Source: Candidatus Ozemobacter sibiricus (GTDB taxonomy: Bacteria > Muiribacteriota > Ozemobacteria > Ozemobacterales > Ozemobacteraceae). From it: 64,000 bases of DNA. Below the pieces are notes generated by a model. That model was not told the DNA's origin and made no database searches. It saw only the letters and a program-made list of their open reading frames with translations. Every line of letters starts with the position of its first letter. Position 1 is the first letter of the stretch. This document shows positions 46,046 through 64,000 of this stretch, one piece after another. Location of the stretch: NCBI GenBank assembly GCA_003327425.1, contig QOQW01000007.1, positions 71,901 through 135,900 of the forward strand, written 5' to 3'. A program made the translations under genes and the position numbers.

Positions 46046-47032
46046 TCAGAACTGCTTGGAAGCGGAGATCCGGTGCGCTTCCCCGAGGGTTTCATCGACG
46101 TACGAGTAGTCGAATCGCCAGGTTTCCACCTTGAAGCTGGCGCCCAGGGTCAGGTCTCCAGCCTGGGAACCCAACCGCAGGGCTGCGAAATCTTTCATCC
46201 ACCACTCGGCGCCGAGTCGGAATTTGGCGTTCATGTCCTGGACCTTGTTGATGTCGGCCGCCAGCGTGAGCCGGTCGTTGGGTTTGTGGGAAAGGCCGAC
46301 GGTGGTGGTGACAGGGATGCGGTCCGAGTGCCCGGATGGGGTGTCCCAGGTCAGCTTTTCGCCCAAATCGCGCAGGGACAGGCCGGCCATGGTGCGATCG
46401 GAGACCTTGTACAGGAACCCCAGATCGAGACCCCAGGAATCGGCGGAGTTGGTGAACAGGTCCTGGCGCAGCGACTTGATGTTGAGGCCGCCGTACCATC
46501 GGTCGCTCAGTTGTTTGGCGTAGGTGCCGAAAGTCGACGTCTCGGTGTCGTCAAAGTAGCTGAAGATATAGACGTTGCGGCCAGGCGTGTAGGTGCCGCC
46601 GGGGTCGGTCGCGGGCAGGTTGTCCGCCGGATCGAACGGCACGCCGTCGGTGCGGCCGGTGGCCAGCCGGGTCTCGGGAATGCCGTCGATGCCGAACCGG
46701 ATATGCGATAGGGCGACGACGGCCTTCGTCTTTCCCTGCTTATCCTTCAACAGGTGGGCGTAGTTGAAGAAGTTGTACTTGCGGTCGAGGGTCAGGTTGG
46801 CATGCATGAAGGAGGCTTCATGCTTCTTCAGCAAGGCCAGGCCCGCGGGGTTCCAGAAGGCCGCCGTGGCGTCGTCGGCCACCGCCGTGAAGGCGCTGCC
46901 CATGCCCAGGGCGCGGGCGCCCACGCCCATCTTCAGGTAGGCGCCCGCTCGCCCGGCCGAGTCGGCTTGGATCGGGGTCGCCACCAGCCCGCACAGGATG
47001 ATGGGGAGCAGGAGTTTGAGTGTGGTCTTCAT
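46046..47032 (-). CDS. PorV/UPF0164-like outer-membrane beta-barrel protein
   Basis: Signal peptide MKTTLKLLLPIILCGLVATPIQA; N-terminal signature GVGARALGMGSAFTAVADDATAAFWNPAGLA; alternating amphipathic strands; C-terminal Phe. Confidence 0.55.
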   Translation of the reverse strand: MKTTLKLLLPIILCGLVATPIQADSAGRAGAYLKMGVGARALGMGSAFTAVADDATAAFWNPAGLALLKKHEASFMHANLTLDRKYNFFNYAHLLKDKQGKTKAVVALSHIRFGIDGIPETRLATGRTDGVPFDPADNLPATDPGGTYTPGRNVYIFSYFDDTETSTFGTYAKQLSDRWYGGLNIKSLRQDLFTNSADSWGLDLGFLYKVSDRTMAGLSLRDLGEKLTWDTPSGHSDRIPVTTTVGLSHKPNDRLTLAADINKVQDMNAKFRLGAEWWMKDFAALRLGSQAGDLTLGASFKVETWRFDYSYVDETLGEAHRISASKQF

Positions 47033-47188
47033 GGGTATCCCCCTTCGACGATCGATACGCTTGGTCATCTCCAGTTGTCGGCGGCCGTCGCCGCTTTGTT
47101 GAGTACTTTTCTTCATCTGCTTCGCAGGCTCCTTCACGGGTGATGCTCGGAGCGGACCTGATGGGCGTCCCGCGGAGTGGTCGGAGCC

Positions 47189-61600: not shown

Positions 61601-64000
61601 GGGACGTTGAAGCTGAACGGCTGGTTGAGCAGGATTTCGCTGGCGTCGCTGGCGGTGGTCGACTGGAACGAACGGGCGGTGAAGGCGGTGACGATGGGGC
61701 CGCGGCTCTGGATGACGATGGCCGGGAACGGTCCGGCGACCGGGTTGCGGGCCAGATCGGTGCCGGTGAACACGGTGTTCCAGGGGCCTTGCGGGTGCAT
61801 CTCGTTGATCGGCTGGGTGTTGACGAACTGGGCCTGCGCGGGCCCGACCCACCCGACGAACCGGCAGGGGATGCTGTAGCCCGTGGTGGCGATCGTCATG
61901 GTCGGAGTCGCGGTGCGCTGGTTCATCGGCTCGCTGAAGGTCACGGTGAAGGTGGCCGCCCCCGAAGCCATGGTATAGAGCGGTGCGGCCGGCAGGCTCG
62001 TCAGCGAGAGCACGGTCGGCGCCGTGCGGTCGATCACCAGGCCGACGGCGCTGGCCACGCCGGTGGCGAAGTTGCCGGCCAGGTCGACGATCGTCAGGCC
62101 GTACAGCCCTTCCCCGAATCCGGCCGCCTGGGTGAGCGCTCGGGTCAACGTATGCCCGGTCGCGGTGGGGGTCAGGCGGATGGTCGTGGTGGCGGTGCCC
62201 GAGGCGATGAGCAGGCGCTGCGGGTCAGTGGCGGTGGTGGTGACCGTGAAGGTGATGGCGCCCGAGATGGCATCGTTGTAGTAGTAGAGGCCCGGGGTGG
62301 TGGTGGCGTCCGACACGCCGGTCAGGATGAAGCTGGTGACATCCGCGGGCAGATTGTCGAACACCAGAGATTTCGCGGTGGCGCTGATGTTGCCATGGAT
62401 ATCCTGGATGCGGGCGGTATAGGTAGTGAGGTTCAGGAAGGCCGGTGATCCGAAGACGCTGCCATCCAGCGTGGCGCTGCCCAGAACCCCAGCCATGGCC
62501 ACCGGCGCCGTGCCGACGTTGGTGCCGCTCGGATCATAGATCAGCACCTGATGCGGCGGACCGAACGGACCGCCCAGCGTATAGGTGATGCTCAAGGTGG
62601 CCACGTTGGGCGGCGCCAGGTCGCTGAAGGGTTGATCGAGCAAGGGGGTGAAGGTCGAGATCAGGTGCTGCTGCGTGAGCAGGGCGGCCAGGTAGGTCGG
62701 CCCGACCGACCGGATCTGGATGGTGAAGGAGGTCGGGCCCGGCGGGATGAGCCGGTTGCCAGCCAGATCGTCGGCGCCTCCGATGGTGATGGTATAGGTG
62801 CCCTGCGGAACGGTGGTGTCGATGACCGCGGCATTGCGGAACTGGGCCGAGGTCGAGCTGATCCACCCCACCAGCTCGAGCGGGATGCTGGCGGTCGGGG
62901 TGGTGCGATGGATCAACCGTCCGAAGGGGATTTCCGAGGTATCCATCGGTTCGCTGAAATCGACGGTGAAGATCCGGCCGCCCACGGGGGCCGGACCGAT
63001 GTCGAGCACGCCGGCCTGCAGCGAAGGATTGATCATGGTCACGGTCGGCGAGGCCCGGTCGACTCGCAGCATCAAGGTGCCGGTGGCGCCGCAGGAGTTG
63101 CCGGCGAGGTCGTAGAAAGAGAGCTGGTACAGACCGTCGGTCAACGTGGTTCCGGTCGACAAAGCATACGGCGGCGTCAAGATGGTGCCATTGCTGAGGA
63201 TGGTGCCGCCGCTGCTGGCGACCAGGCGCAGCGGTTCGGTCGCGGTCGGATTGGTCGTGAGCGAGAGGGTGAACGGCCCGAACCGCGGGGAATAGTACTG
63301 GACCCCGCCGGTGGCGATGCCATGGCCGGCCGTGGTGAAGACGATCTGGCTGATGGTGGCCGGGCGGCTGTCGTAGGTCAGGGTGCCGCGGGAGGTATCG
63401 GAAAGATTTCCATACTGGTCGCGGATCCAGATGGTGAATGTCGCCGGTCCGGCGTTGGGGGGGATGATGGCGAGCCAGTTGGCGCTATCGGTCGAGACCT
63501 CGACCGTGGCCGGTCCGGCGGGGCAATCATAGAGGAAGGTGGCGACCGGAATCGATCCGTTGAACAAGAGCAAGGAGTGGGTGCCCACGGCTTGCGAGGT
63601 CGTGTAGGTGATGACGAAGGTGGCCACCCCGGGCGGCTGGACGAGCGGACTGAAGGGATCGGTCGAGCGCAGGGCGCTGCCGAACACCAGCGGCTGGTTG
63701 GTCAACGTCACCACCGTGGGGGTCGGGCCGGCCGTCTGGATATAGAGCTGCCCAGGGGCGGGGATGGTGGTATTGAGCGGGTTGCCTGCCAGGTCGCGAC
63801 CGCCGGTCAAGCGGTAGGTATAGGTTCCCGTCGGAATGGTCGGTCGGACGATCGGGGTCAGGTTGAGGAAGCGGGCGGTGGTGGCGATATTGGGATCGGC
63901 CCAGGTGGGCGAGGCCATGGCCACGACGGTCGCGCCAGCGAACAATTCAAGGGTGGGAGGAGCGGCGCGATCCAGGGGTTCGCTGAAGATGACGGTGAAC
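58675..64000 (-). CDS. Second giant Big_5/Ig-repeat surface protein with T9SS type-A C-terminal domain (5' end beyond window)
   Basis: The reading frame stays open up to the window edge. It has repeated FSEPM(D/N), D.AGN and Ig-like modules. Its last ~700 aa are collinear with giant-1 (FSNPANEYD…). The CTD (YPNPANRRAVLRIS…KLYDAAGHKVRTL…WDLTNEEGDPVANGLYIAKV…KIAVLR) matches the Por secretion-tail consensus. Confidence 0.8.
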   Translation of the reverse strand, partial: FTVIFSEPLDRAAPPTLELFAGATVVAMASPTWADPNIATTARFLNLTPIVRPTIPTGTYTYRLTGGRDLAGNPLNTTIPAPGQLYIQTAGPTPTVVTLTNQPLVFGSALRSTDPFSPLVQPPGVATFVITYTTSQAVGTHSLLLFNGSIPVATFLYDCPAGPATVEVSTDSANWLAIIPPNAGPATFTIWIRDQYGNLSDTSRGTLTYDSRPATISQIVFTTAGHGIATGGVQYYSPRFGPFTLSLTTNPTATEPLRLVASSGGTILSNGTILTPPYALSTGTTLTDGLYQLSFYDLAGNSCGATGTLMLRVDRASPTVTMINPSLQAGVLDIGPAPVGGRIFTVDFSEPMDTSEIPFGRLIHRTTPTASIPLELVGWISSTSAQFRNAAVIDTTVPQGTYTITIGGADDLAGNRLIPPGPTSFTIQIRSVGPTYLAALLTQQHLISTFTPLLDQPFSDLAPPNVATLSITYTLGGPFGPPHQVLIYDPSGTNVGTAPVAMAGVLGSATLDGSVFGSPAFLNLTTYTARIQDIHGNISATAKSLVFDNLPADVTSFILTGVSDATTTPGLYYYNDAISGAITFTVTTTATDPQRLLIASGTATTTIRLTPTATGHTLTRALTQAAGFGEGLYGLTIVDLAGNFATGVASAVGLVIDRTAPTVLSLTSLPAAPLYTMASGAATFTVTFSEPMNQRTATPTMTIATTGYSIPCRFVGWVGPAQAQFVNTQPINEMHPQGPWNTVFTGTDLARNPVAGPFPAIVIQSRGPIVTAFTARSFQSTTASDASEILLNQPFSFNVPPGEASLTIQVSQPPVEPVSIVFLQAGSPVASSPIAFSGGTMATYAWNMTSGPWPAAPTTYVVKLIDALGNASRETYSWTMDASEPLVLAAPNLTGGILGTGAYYFNPALGGGLTCYFSAAETVAPRLRVRGQVSTDTFPMTGAGVNQWSGTFYGQYSRGGVPKPTAPDGIYYVDIVDAAGNVGLPSGAFSAVATAVLDTVAPVISTYTLLVDGQPRSRFSPTAATLTIQLTTTEPIVATGVWWVEVRTDANTYVNRLPVTASGAYVIAQWNGTRENGQLVIDGLYHFHATDYTRNVASNRGSIFVISSPFRIQNATQISSTVVDLTFNHDINPATVVGTAFNVTGQTGIIASLTAPTVVRLTLTPGLIHNVTHTITVSSALRSTDGAAAVDPNNKISLLADARGPVLTGTSFQGLTGQREVIVQFDEAVTLASAQATASYLLERAGTPIALTSAILRADQTSVILSASTDLLQGVTYSVRAIAVRDRYQNLSTGNTVTFQGRDLTPPVLEVAAFSNPANEYDLIVVARANEALQGAPTLRYTQSNLSEVALVITPTGASLTWMAGIHLNQGYPGNGTLVVSGTDLAGNTGSRSEVFTIAYVSASVRTLIHSPDQRLAVDFPAGSLRKDSLVTILPQTIELTAVGSTTRAALRPRLASLRPKGGGMALAKNKVLAAQTDARTLEQQAQELSPAGGGFELGLPAGRLTGKAALRFRGAALASDSARAGIFRYDDERGWVFLSNARQEDGLHASITQGGLYAVLCDQLAPRLTLSTKVDPDQPFRTTRPEFAGRLEEAGSGLDATGLLARLDDGPPQPVTVLPDGTFRFTPVTDLTGGRHTLTLEARDRVGNLGQLAGIRFAVAVPLAIGEISAYPNPANRRAVLRISANRDDLAEGLVEVKLYDAAGHKVRTLTGVRPVRETWGTSRRFLYDIPWDLTNEEGDPVANGLYIAKVVLTDPDNPERRIRQTHKIAVLR

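What the first reader, a model, noticed from the sequence alone, without database searches (positions are those of the whole stretch)
46046..64000. Tandem 'giant CTD-cargo + cognate TPR lipoprotein' modules beside a PorV-like gene: a T9SS-like adhesin/secretion locus in a high-GC, type-IV-pilus-bearing genome
On the minus strand the order is: giant-2 (>1750 aa, truncated), lipoprotein-2, terminator, giant-1 (3260 aa), lipoprotein-1, PorV/UPF0164-like OM barrel. Both giants end in a ~90-aa domain matching the T9SS type-A sorting signal (…YPNPA…V.L.IYD.AGH.V…WDL.N..G..VANGLY.A…K.AVLR). The two lipoproteins are mutual paralogs, and each sits immediately downstream of a giant gene; the stop of giant-2 and the GTG start of lipoprotein-2 overlap. 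This repeated cargo-plus-partner arrangement recalls SprB/PorP-SprF pairs in Bacteroidetes, but the partner here is a small TPR-like lipoprotein, not a PorP barrel. I do not recognise this architecture as a described system. The ~68% GC and sigma70-type promoters argue against a classical Bacteroidetes host.
Basis: partly seen in the sequence, partly recalled or inferred. Interest (0 to 1): 0.85.

Follow-up and report, generated by a model that had tools for sequence, protein, structure and literature searches.

The report
Giant surface proteins with cognate lipoproteins
An uncultured Riflebacteria genome encodes two very large surface-type proteins that end in a type IX secretion sorting domain, each followed by its own small lipoprotein and one of them by a PorV-like outer-membrane barrel; this pairing held in all 44 related loci that could be scored, in a phylum not reported to have this secretion system.

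Summary
The window comes from Candidatus Ozemobacter sibiricus (Riflebacteria). On the minus strand it reads: giant-2 (4221 aa in full), lipoprotein-2, a hairpin terminator, giant-1 (3262 aa), lipoprotein-1, then a PorV/PorQ-family barrel.

Both giants end in a ~110-aa domain homologous to the C-terminal domain (CTD) of P. gingivalis PorU (E=3.5e-12). The two window copies score just below the TIGR04183 cutoff. All 10 orthologous or paralogous tails tested pass it.

The barrel passes the NCBIfam PorV/PorQ cutoff, and its model matches solved PorV best. The lipoproteins are lipobox-anchored TPR domains with no family hit.

In 44 of 44 distinct related loci with upstream sequence, this lipoprotein directly follows a gene for a large protein ending in this CTD. 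Lipoprotein and CTD sequences diverge together (r=0.89), so the pair is inherited as a unit.

The barrel directly follows module type 1 in 22 of 30 loci. It is never next to the other module types.

No type IX core gene was seen, and a genome-wide test was not possible. A gingipain-like C25 peptidase in the window is not PorU.

My best reading is a cargo-specific chaperone or pilot lipoprotein plus CTD docking on the PorV-like barrel. I rate it a new variant of a known kind.

The parts
46046..47032 (-). PorV/PorQ-family outer-membrane beta-barrel (328 aa, signal peptide, predicted FadL/PorV-like barrel)
   Evidence: NCBIfam NF033709 PorV_fam scores 125.1 bits (cutoff 90). The equivalog models are not met: PorV 40.3 (cutoff 250), PorQ 70.2 (cutoff 220), PorV2 88.5 (cutoff 325). 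AF2 model: pLDDT 87. Best PDB fold matches are F. johnsoniae PorV (8gl6_F E=1.8e-13, TM 0.70; 6h3i_F E=2.3e-10), ahead of TodX/FadL at about 1e-8. A PorV-like ORF lies directly downstream of the lipoprotein in 22 of 30 type-1 loci.
47189..47887 (-). Lipoprotein-1: signal peptide, lipobox LASGC, Gly-rich linker, ~175-aa TPR domain
   Evidence: The Gly-Cys of the lipobox is invariant in 28 homologs. AF2 pLDDT is above 90 over residues 57-232, with 9 helices. The fold is generic TPR. No NCBIfam hit; only sub-threshold TPR_19 in Pfam. 82 protein clusters, almost all Riflebacteria.
47934..57722 (-). Giant-1: 3262-aa secreted protein built of Ig-like domains (Big_5, Big_13, FlgD_ig; 12 D-x-[AS]-G-N motifs), ending in the CTD
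   Evidence: Translation. Pfam and NCBIfam domains. Orthologs are 43-65% identical with a near-constant length of 3214-3273 aa. Motif count. The public gene call gives 3262 aa.
47937..48296 (-). CTD of giant-1 (last ~110-120 aa; ...FPNPA...IYDVAGH...WDL...VANGLY...HKLAVLR-stop)
   Evidence: The family profile hits the PorU CTD, 6za2_A residues 1055-1143 of 1156, at E=3.5e-12. NF033707 positions 957-1094 match at E=3e-20. TIGR04183 scores 16.9 bits, below the cutoff of 23. Orthologous tails pass that cutoff.
57833..57862 (-). Intrinsic-terminator-like hairpin between module 2 and module 1 (13-bp perfect stem, 4-nt loop, T-rich tail)
   Evidence: Read directly from the sequence. Not reported by the consensus scan.
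57908..58669 (-). Lipoprotein-2 (253 aa from the ATG; an alternative GTG lies at 58678): lipobox, (Thr-Gly)n linker, TPR domain
   Evidence: 42% identical to lipoprotein-1. The exact 253-aa product is on record in two assemblies. The linker is encoded by an imperfect 6-nt repeat at 58443-58535. AGGTGA lies 5 nt before the ATG and contains the giant-2 stop codon.
58675..64000 (-). Giant-2, the 3' part (1774 of 4221 aa), ending in the CTD (58678-59037)
   Evidence: Translation. Full length of 4221 aa in GCA_020725785.1. 35% identical to giant-1 over 1160 aa. CTD HMM hit.

Best explanation
**What it is.** The unit is a two-gene surface-display module, duplicated in tandem in this genome.
- Gene 1 encodes a multi-thousand-residue protein with a Sec signal peptide, made of Ig-like domains. 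It ends in a long T9SS type A C-terminal domain (CTD) of the PorU/PorZ kind.
- Gene 2 sits 5-90 nt downstream and encodes a small lipid-anchored TPR protein specific to that giant.
- Module 1 is followed by a PorV/PorQ-family barrel.

**Proposed mechanism (inferred, not shown).**
1. The giant is exported by Sec.
2. Its cognate TPR lipoprotein is tethered to a membrane by a ~35-residue flexible linker. It binds the giant in the periplasm as a chaperone or pilot and delivers it to the outer-membrane export site.
3. The CTD docks on the PorV/Q-like barrel, as CTDs dock on PorV, PorQ and PorP-type shuttle or anchor barrels in Bacteroidota. The giant ends up displayed on the cell surface as an adhesin, fibril or surface-layer component.

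**Shown here.**
- Sequence homology of the CTD to a solved T9SS CTD.
- Family membership and fold of the barrel.
- The lipobox and TPR fold of the partner.
- The strict linkage and joint divergence of partner and CTD.

**Not shown.**
- Which protein forms the outer-membrane translocon.
- Whether the CTD is cleaved or retained.
- What the lipoprotein binds.
For: **CTD.**
- It is homologous to the P. gingivalis PorU CTD at E=3.5e-12. Weaker hits go to PorZ and to an F. johnsoniae CTD.
- It lies at the extreme C-terminus. PNP, NG-x-Y and a Lys in the last strand are invariant. Mizgalska et al. (PMC11285876) describe a conserved Lys in the last strand as part of the motif needed for secretion.
- 10 of 10 related tails score 25-36 bits on TIGR04183, above the cutoff of 23.

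**Barrel.**
- NF033709 is above its cutoff.
- Solved PorV is the best structural match.
- It is adjacent in 22 of 30 type-1 loci.

**Partner.**
- It directly follows a CTD-ending ORF on the same strand in 44 of 44 distinct loci with upstream sequence. These include second and third modules in the same genomes and MAGs labelled Cloacimonadota or UBP17.
- Lipoprotein and CTD pairwise distances correlate at r=0.89 and give the same three clusters.
- The tandem type 2-type 1 arrangement recurs in a second genome.
- In the window, only the two giants carry the CTD.

**Precedents.**
- Type B CTD cargo uses a PorP-like partner (PMC9143113; seen as title and abstract only).
- Specialised shuttle proteins recognise T9SS signals (PMC12618676; title and abstract only).
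- PorU and PorZ keep their CTDs after secretion (PMC11285876).
Against: - No T9SS core gene (PorK/L/M/N, Sov/SprA, PorU, PorZ, PorW) was seen in the 64-kb window or in the flanks I inspected by Pfam. The papers read here describe T9SS as confined to Bacteroidota or the Fibrobacteres-Chlorobi-Bacteroidetes (FCB) superphylum, and no paper in the library links it to Riflebacteria.
- The two window CTDs are below the curated cutoffs.
- The barrel fails the PorV and PorQ equivalog models.
- The barrel's nearest relatives outside the phylum are UPF0164 proteins paired with a lipoprotein that has no CTD.
- The barrel is not next to type 1 modules in the rumen/gut clade, and is never next to type 2 or type 3 modules.
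- Nothing shows a physical contact between the lipoprotein and the giant. The TPR fold is generic.
Confidence: 0.5

Rival explanations
1. Complete T9SS reading. Riflebacteria carry a full T9SS (SprA/Sov translocon, PorKLMN motor and ring, PorU/PorZ attachment complex) elsewhere in the genome. The giants are then ordinary type A cargo, the barrel is the PorV shuttle, and the lipoprotein is a cargo-specific accessory.
For: - The related CTDs pass TIGR04183.
- The barrel is in the PorV/PorQ family and has a PorV-like fold.
- In Bacteroidota, CTD proteins and T9SS genes co-occur strictly (PMC11285876).
Against: - No core gene was seen in any sequence inspected.
- The only C25 peptidase found (5267-7459) has a gingipain-type propeptide, has no CTD, and scores 33 bits against a cutoff of 420 on the PorU model.
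- Medium-sized proteins with this CTD type that I scanned were not PorU. The one carrying part of a PorU2-like domain came from Rubricoccaceae, not Riflebacteria.
- In about 1 Mb of flanking sequence, the CTD profile hit only the lipoprotein-linked giants.
Confidence: 0.2
2. Coincidental neighbourhood. The C-terminal domain is only a structural Ig-like end domain. The giants reach the surface by an unrelated route, or stay in the periplasm. The barrel is a FadL/UPF0164-type channel for hydrophobic compounds with its own function. Only the giant-lipoprotein pair is a functional unit.
For: - The barrel's closest outgroup is annotated UPF0164 and has no CTD neighbour.
- TodX and FadL are the next-best folds.
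- The same domain type also occurs as internal repeats in other proteins.
- The barrel is missing next to 8 type-1 modules and next to all type 2 and type 3 modules.
Against: - The domain is always the very last one, and it keeps the motifs that matter for T9SS recognition.
- Barrel adjacency is kept across most of the phylum although giant sequences have diverged to 43-65% identity.
Confidence: 0.22
3. Pilotin or assembly-factor reading. The lipoprotein is a PilF/PilW/Tgl-type pilotin for the type IV pilus secretin encoded in the same neighbourhood, or a BamD/CpoB-like envelope factor. It would be unrelated to the giants.
For: - pilB, pilT, a pilin gene and a prepilin peptidase gene lie 4-8 genes downstream with conserved synteny.
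Against: - The lipoproteins match no NCBIfam or Pfam pilotin or BamD model.
- There are 2-3 paralogs per genome, and each is glued to a CTD giant. These include loci without pil genes and MAGs of another phylum label.
- The lipoproteins diverge together with the CTDs.
Confidence: 0.05

Closest known systems
T9SS type A CTD cargo with the PorV shuttle (Bacteroidota)
   Same: - A Sec signal peptide plus an Ig-like sorting domain at the extreme C-terminus, homologous by sequence.
- A 14-strand-type FadL-like barrel of the PorV/PorQ family encoded beside the cargo.
   Different: - The host is Riflebacteria, treated as diderm Terrabacteria in one study.
- No translocon, motor or sortase gene was identified.
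- The barrel fails the PorV and PorQ equivalog models.
- In the loci sampled, the CTD seems restricted to 2-3 giants per genome rather than tens of cargo proteins.
PorU-PorV and PorZ-PorQ pairs of the P. gingivalis attachment complex (CTDs that are not removed)
   Same: - The CTD here is long (~110 aa) and matches the PorU and PorZ tails better than generic CTD models.
- PorU and PorZ keep their CTDs and have an extra hairpin after strand 5 (PMC11285876).
- The barrel is PorQ-sized at 328 aa.
   Different: Retention of the CTD and binding to the barrel were not tested here. The cargo is a 3000-4000-aa Ig-repeat protein, not an enzyme or an LPS carrier.
SprB/SprF-type pairs: type B CTD cargo with a PorP-like partner
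   Same: The logic is one dedicated partner per giant cargo. PMC9143113 and PMC12618676 (title and abstract only) show that type B cargo associates with PorP-like proteins. That the partner gene lies directly downstream of the cargo gene is from my own knowledge. Here the partner gene lies directly downstream of each giant.
   Different: - The CTD is type A-like. TIGR04131 gives no hit to the window giants.
- The partner is a ~230-aa TPR lipoprotein, not a PorP/SprF barrel.
PilF/PilW/Tgl pilotins (small outer-membrane TPR lipoproteins that pilot secretins)
   Same: Similar size, lipid anchor and TPR fold. The idea of a lipoprotein that escorts one specific large envelope protein is the same.
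   Different: No sequence-family match. The lipoprotein is linked to CTD giants, not to secretins.
UPF0164 / FadL-like barrels of Wallbacteria, Muirbacteria and Treponema
   Same: These are the closest sequence relatives of the barrel outside the phylum, at 42-45% identity. In Wallbacteria and Muirbacteria the barrel is also preceded by a lipoprotein gene. The Treponema link rests only on the Pfam UPF0164 hit and my own knowledge of that family.
   Different: That lipoprotein is a ~480-aa CarboxypepD_reg-type protein. It has no TPR domain, and no CTD giant lies upstream.

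Membership tests
T9SS type A sorting domain (TIGR04183 / PF18962) | HMM score at or above the curated cutoff | tested here: inconclusive
   The window copies are below cutoff. 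TIGR04183 gives 16.9 bits (giant-1 tail) and 18.5 (giant-2 tail), or 21.8 for the giant-2 fragment, against 23. PF18962 gives 17.5 and 15.6 against 27. All 10 orthologous or paralogous tails of the same family score 25.1-35.6 bits, above the cutoff.
T9SS type A sorting domain (TIGR04183 / PF18962) | Sequence homology to an experimentally solved T9SS CTD | tested here: met
   Profile A2 against PDB sequences: PorU 6za2_A residues 1055-1143 of 1156, E=3.5e-12. PorZ 5m11 E=1.2. 8glj_D E=1.8.
T9SS type A sorting domain (TIGR04183 / PF18962) | Position at the extreme C-terminus, with a conserved Lys in the last strand | tested here: met
   The domain ends at the stop codon in every locus. Invariant P22-N23-P24, N91-G92-x-Y94 and K115. 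The motif is described in PMC11285876.
T9SS type A sorting domain (TIGR04183 / PF18962) | Secretion depends on a T9SS | not testable with these tools
   This needs genetics or proteomics in an uncultured organism.
PorV/PorQ family (NF033709) | HMM score above the curated cutoff | tested here: met
   125.1 bits against a cutoff of 90.
PorV (NF033710) or PorQ (NF033711) equivalogs | HMM score above the equivalog cutoff | tested here: not met
   PorV 40.3 against 250. PorQ 70.2 against 220. PorV2 (NF052325) 88.5 against 325.
PorV/PorQ family (NF033709) | PorV-like beta-barrel fold | tested here: met
   AF2 model pLDDT 87. Best PDB matches are PorV chains 8gl6_F and 6h3i_F (TM 0.68-0.70), ahead of TodX and FadL.
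Type IX secretion system (as a system) | Core genes in the same genome: SprA/Sov translocon, PorK/L/M/N, PorU, PorZ | tested here: inconclusive
   None were seen in the 64-kb window or in the flanks I inspected by Pfam. The rest of the genome could not be searched. The C25 peptidase at 5267-7459 is not PorU (33.5 bits against 420; no CTD).
Type B CTD cargo with a PorP/SprF partner | A type B CTD (TIGR04131) on the cargo and a PorP/SprF barrel as partner | tested here: not met
   TIGR04131 gives no hit to the giants. The partner is an all-helical TPR lipoprotein.
PilF/PilW type IV pilus pilotins | Sequence-family match and linkage to secretin or pilus genes | tested here: not met
   The lipoproteins give no NCBIfam hit at E<=0.1 to any pilotin model. 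Fold similarity is generic TPR. Linkage is to CTD giants in 44 of 44 loci, many of them without pil genes.

The most novel reading that the evidence does not exclude
Riflebacteria, treated in one study as a diderm phylum of the Terrabacteria side of the bacterial tree, use a reduced relative of type IX secretion. A type A CTD, a PorV/Q-like barrel and a cargo-specific TPR lipoprotein together export and anchor a few giant surface proteins, without the PorKLMN motor and ring, SprA or PorU of Bacteroidota. This would separate the CTD-and-barrel recognition step from the rest of the machine. It would also point to an older or horizontally spread core of the system.
Probability: 0.2. Interest if true: 0.85.

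Novelty: new variant of a known kind. Interest (0 to 1): 0.62.

Why it matters
Type IX secretion is treated as a hallmark of Bacteroidota and the FCB superphylum (the Fibrobacteres-Chlorobi-Bacteroidetes group).

Here its sorting domain and its shuttle-type barrel occur in a distant candidate phylum, tied to a third component that has no described counterpart. That component is a cargo-specific TPR lipoprotein with invariant linkage to CTD giants.

- If the phylum lacks the Bacteroidota core genes, it is a natural minimal system for asking what a CTD and a PorV-like barrel can do alone.
- If the core genes are present, the known range of T9SS widens and a new class of cargo-specific accessory is added.

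Either way, the giants are conserved across the phylum at 43-65% identity and constant length. That makes them candidates for major surface structures of organisms that have never been cultured.

Tried and rejected
**Ideas tested and set aside**
- *C25 peptidase (5267-7459) as the PorU sortase.* Rejected. It has a gingipain-type propeptide and no CTD. It scores 33.5 bits against a cutoff of 420 on PorU and 53 against 450 on PorU2. Its neighbours are unrelated to secretion.
- *Finding a PorU through proteins that share this CTD type.* The representative search gave 1244 hits. Nine medium-sized hits were scanned and looked up. None is a Riflebacteria PorU.
- *Lipoprotein as a type IV pilus pilotin, or as BamD or CpoB.* Rejected on linkage and lack of family hits. 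The fold alone cannot discriminate between them.
- *Do the barrel's relatives outside the phylum also sit next to CTD cargo?* They do not. They follow a different lipoprotein.

**Dead ends**
- The look-up of lipoprotein-2 with the GTG start found nothing. The ATG start worked.
- The afdb50 fold library was unavailable.
- Literature searches for Riflebacteria with T9SS or type IX secretion gave no paper.
- The paper on the deep aquifer MAGs says nothing on secretion in Riflebacteria.
- The simple promoter and terminator scan gave no promoter and missed the hairpin.

**Not attempted**
- A fused lipoprotein-CTD structure prediction. The tool reports no inter-domain error, so an interface could not have been judged.

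Full report
**Source and gene map**

Lipoprotein-1, the barrel and a C25 peptidase of the window are 100% identical to proteins of Candidatus Ozemobacter sibiricus, a member of Riflebacteria. ORF listing and translation confirm the minus-strand order:
- giant-2: 58675 to beyond 64000
- lipoprotein-2: 57908-58669
- giant-1: 47934-57722
- lipoprotein-1: 47189-47887
- barrel: 46046-47032

Another assembly of the same organism shows giant-2 is 4221 aa in full. There, lipoprotein-2 is called from the ATG at 58669, 253 aa. The GTG that overlaps the giant-2 stop is real. But AGGTGA reads better as the ribosome-binding site for that ATG, and it contains the stop codon, so the two genes are probably translationally coupled in either case.

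A perfect 13-bp hairpin with a T-rich tail follows lipoprotein-2 at 57862-57833. The likely transcription units are therefore giant-2 plus lipoprotein-2, and giant-1 plus lipoprotein-1 plus the barrel.

Downstream lie genes for a STAS protein, shikimate dehydrogenase, PilB, PilT and a pilin. GC in the region is about 0.64. No sigma-70-like site was found there.

**The C-terminal domain (CTD)**

Against curated models, the two window tails are sub-threshold. TIGR04183 gives 16.9 bits for the giant-1 tail and 18.5 for the giant-2 tail, or 21.8 when the giant-2 fragment is scanned, against a cutoff of 23. PF18962 gives 17.5 and 15.6 against 27. They match the C-terminal 140 positions of the PorU model much better, at E=3e-20 and 4e-16.

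A five-sequence profile of the tail (A2) hits the solved P. gingivalis PorU at residues 1055-1143 of 1156, E=3.5e-12. PorZ and an F. johnsoniae CTD follow weakly.

Ten related tails were scanned: a rumen-clade type 1, another genome's type 2, and type 3 copies from Riflebacteria and from other MAGs. All pass TIGR04183 at 25-36 bits.

The domain always ends at the stop codon. It keeps PNP, NG-x-Y and a Lys in the last strand. A conserved Lys in the last strand is part of the C-terminal motif shown to matter for secretion (PMC11285876). That paper also states that PorU and PorZ keep their CTDs and have longer CTDs with an extra hairpin. The ~110-aa domain here is of that long kind.

**The barrel**

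NF033709 (PorV/PorQ family) scores 125 bits against a cutoff of 90. The PorV, PorQ and PorV2 equivalog models are not met.

An AF2 model built from 40 homologs has pLDDT 87. Its best PDB matches are the PorV chains of the F. johnsoniae translocon complexes (E=1.8e-13 and 2.3e-10; TM 0.68-0.70). TodX and FadL come next.

The family continues at 42-45% identity into Wallbacteria and Muirbacteria proteins annotated UPF0164. There the gene is preceded by a ~480-aa CarboxypepD_reg-type lipoprotein without a CTD. Membership of this barrel family therefore does not by itself imply type IX secretion.

**The lipoproteins**

- The two copies are 42% identical.
- In 28 homologs the Gly-Cys of the lipobox is invariant. 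A Gly- or Thr-Gly-rich linker follows, then a ~175-aa domain with invariant Trp, Gly-x-Gly-Trp and His-Ala positions.
- AF2 gives nine helices with pLDDT above 90.
- Neither lipoprotein matches a specific family model. NCBIfam gives nothing for lipoprotein-1 and only a far-sub-threshold hit over the linker of lipoprotein-2; Pfam gives only sub-threshold hits, mainly TPR.

**Linkage test**

A scan of one genome per species with the lipoprotein profile returned 47 loci. I searched their six-frame ORFs locally with profiles for the lipoprotein, the CTD and the barrel.

In every locus with upstream sequence, the lipoprotein directly follows a large ORF on the same strand that ends in the CTD. That is 44 distinct pairs after removing duplicates and adding the loci fetched by exact look-up. 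The three exceptions are contig ends.

Three module types appear:

| Type | Giant | Lipoprotein | Barrel adjacent | Where found |
|---|---|---|---|---|
| 1 | ~3250-3310 aa | ~230 aa | directly downstream in 22 of 30 loci; absent in a rumen/gut clade and one digester MAG | Riflebacteria |
| 2 | 3051-4264 aa | ~250 aa | never | Tandem with type 1 here and in one other genome; alone elsewhere in a third |
| 3 | ~1650-1800 aa | ~215 aa | never | Second locus in several Riflebacteria; also MAGs labelled Cloacimonadota, UBP17 or, in one case, Actinomycetota |

Pairwise distances of lipoproteins and of CTDs correlate at r=0.89 and give the same three clusters. The type 3 pair of a genome groups with type 3 pairs of other genomes, not with its own type 1 pair. 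The pair is therefore inherited and duplicated as a unit. Because the genomes are related, part of the correlation is expected from shared ancestry alone. The identical clustering of paralogous modules is the more informative result.

**The giants**

Pfam finds Big_5, Big_13, FlgD_ig and Big_3_3-type Ig-like domains. There are 12 D-x-[AS]-G-N motifs in giant-1.

Type 1 orthologs are 43-65% identical over their full length, and their lengths stay within 3214-3273 aa. No region is hypervariable. This looks more like a conserved structural surface component than a fast-evolving adhesin.

**Is there a type IX system?**

In the genes I scanned, the 64-kb window has no recognisable core gene.

It does hold a gingipain-like C25 peptidase at 5267-7459. 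That protein has a C25 propeptide and no CTD, and it scores 33.5 bits against a cutoff of 420 on the PorU model. It is conserved with paralogs across Riflebacteria, in neighbourhoods unrelated to secretion.

Proteins that share this CTD type number 1244 cluster representatives at E<=0.001. The nine medium-sized ones I scanned include no Riflebacteria PorU. One is a partial Rubricoccaceae C25 peptidase. Another is a Margulisbacteria protein whose tail passes TIGR04183.

Type 3 loci in Riflebacteria are flanked by fn3, TIG and CarboxypepD_reg surface-type proteins.

No paper in the library mentions Riflebacteria together with T9SS. One phylogenomic study treats Riflebacteria and Wallbacteria as diderm Terrabacteria that have OmpM. 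I could not search whole Riflebacteria genomes, so the presence or absence of SprA, PorKLMN, PorU and PorZ remains open.

**Interpretation**

Firmly supported:
- a conserved two-gene module, giant CTD protein plus cognate TPR lipoprotein
- usually, in its type 1 form, a PorV/PorQ-family barrel as well

Inferred:
- the lipoprotein as a cargo-specific periplasmic chaperone or pilot
- the CTD docking on the barrel for export or anchoring

These inferences rest on analogy with PorV, PorQ and PorP-type shuttle and anchor barrels (PMC9143113 and PMC12618676; PMC11285876) and with pilotin lipoproteins.

Rivals:
- a complete T9SS encoded elsewhere in the genome
- a coincidental barrel neighbourhood with a purely structural end domain
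- a pilotin or BAM-type role for the lipoprotein, disfavoured by the linkage data

**Verdict**

It is a new variant of a known kind: type A CTD cargo with a dedicated partner, where the partner is a TPR lipoprotein and the host lies outside the FCB superphylum (Fibrobacteres-Chlorobi-Bacteroidetes).

Noticed in passing
window 5267-7459 (-), with 4023-5018 (-) and 3105-4001 (-): A gingipain-like C25 cysteine peptidase: signal peptide, Propeptide_C25, Peptidase_C25 with a Gly/Pro-rich insert, and a C-terminal Ig-like domain, but no CTD. It is followed by a KpsF-like SIS+CBS protein and a 298-aa protein with no family hit. It is conserved across Riflebacteria in ~650-aa and ~710-aa paralog classes. 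How a gingipain-type protease is exported without a CTD, in a genome whose giants do carry one, is unexplained.
   Followed up: partly
L054 8533-11098, L055 8483-11146, L056 2495-5157: In Wallbacteria and Muirbacteria, the closest relatives of the barrel (annotated UPF0164) are always preceded by a ~480-aa lipoprotein with CarboxypepD_reg-like domains and no CTD. A lipoprotein-plus-PorV-like-barrel pair may be the older unit.
   Followed up: partly
window 58443-58535 (-), inside lipoprotein-2: The linker between the lipid anchor and the TPR domain is a (Thr-Gly) run of about 20 repeats. It is encoded by an imperfect 6-nt repeat (15.5 copies, 74% matches). Lipoprotein-1 and its orthologs have a Gly-rich linker of varying length instead.
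   Followed up: partly
P0291 (Candidatus Margulisbacteria, 1271 aa, partial): A protein from Margulisbacteria, a phylum I take (not checked here) to lie outside the FCB group, ends in a domain that passes TIGR04183 (27.7 bits against a cutoff of 23). Type A CTD-like tails may be more widespread outside the FCB superphylum than the literature read here suggests.
   Followed up: no
L045 157-3969 (-): In an unclassified MAG whose type 3 module clusters with those of the Cloacimonadota/UBP17-labelled MAGs, a 1270-aa Peptidase_M6 protein lies divergently upstream of the module. NCBIfam has a model for a 'T9SS-dependent M6-like inactivated metalloprotease' (NF052323), and the CTDs studied here also hit its C-terminal part.
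   Followed up: no
window 39352-45920 (-) and L003/L004 11886-17735: The gene order STAS - shikimate dehydrogenase - PilB - PilT - pilin - (prepilin peptidase) directly after the barrel is conserved across divergent Riflebacteria. In the window, a 621-aa membrane protein with a weak PTPS_related hit follows the pilin. Whether the pilus genes relate functionally to the giants is unknown.
   Followed up: partly
window 12001-14100: This is the GC-richest stretch of the window (0.72). Long ORFs overlap on both strands (12142-14103 +, 12037-13704 -). I did not determine which strand, if either, is coding.
   Followed up: no
L004 1-60 and 248-9922: In a genome without the type 2 module, the type 1 giant directly follows the ribosomal protein L7/L12 gene, the position where rpoB usually sits.
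   Followed up: no
window 18748-21682 (+): MlaE and MlaD homologs, which maintain outer-membrane lipid asymmetry, are present. This fits a diderm envelope.
   Followed up: no
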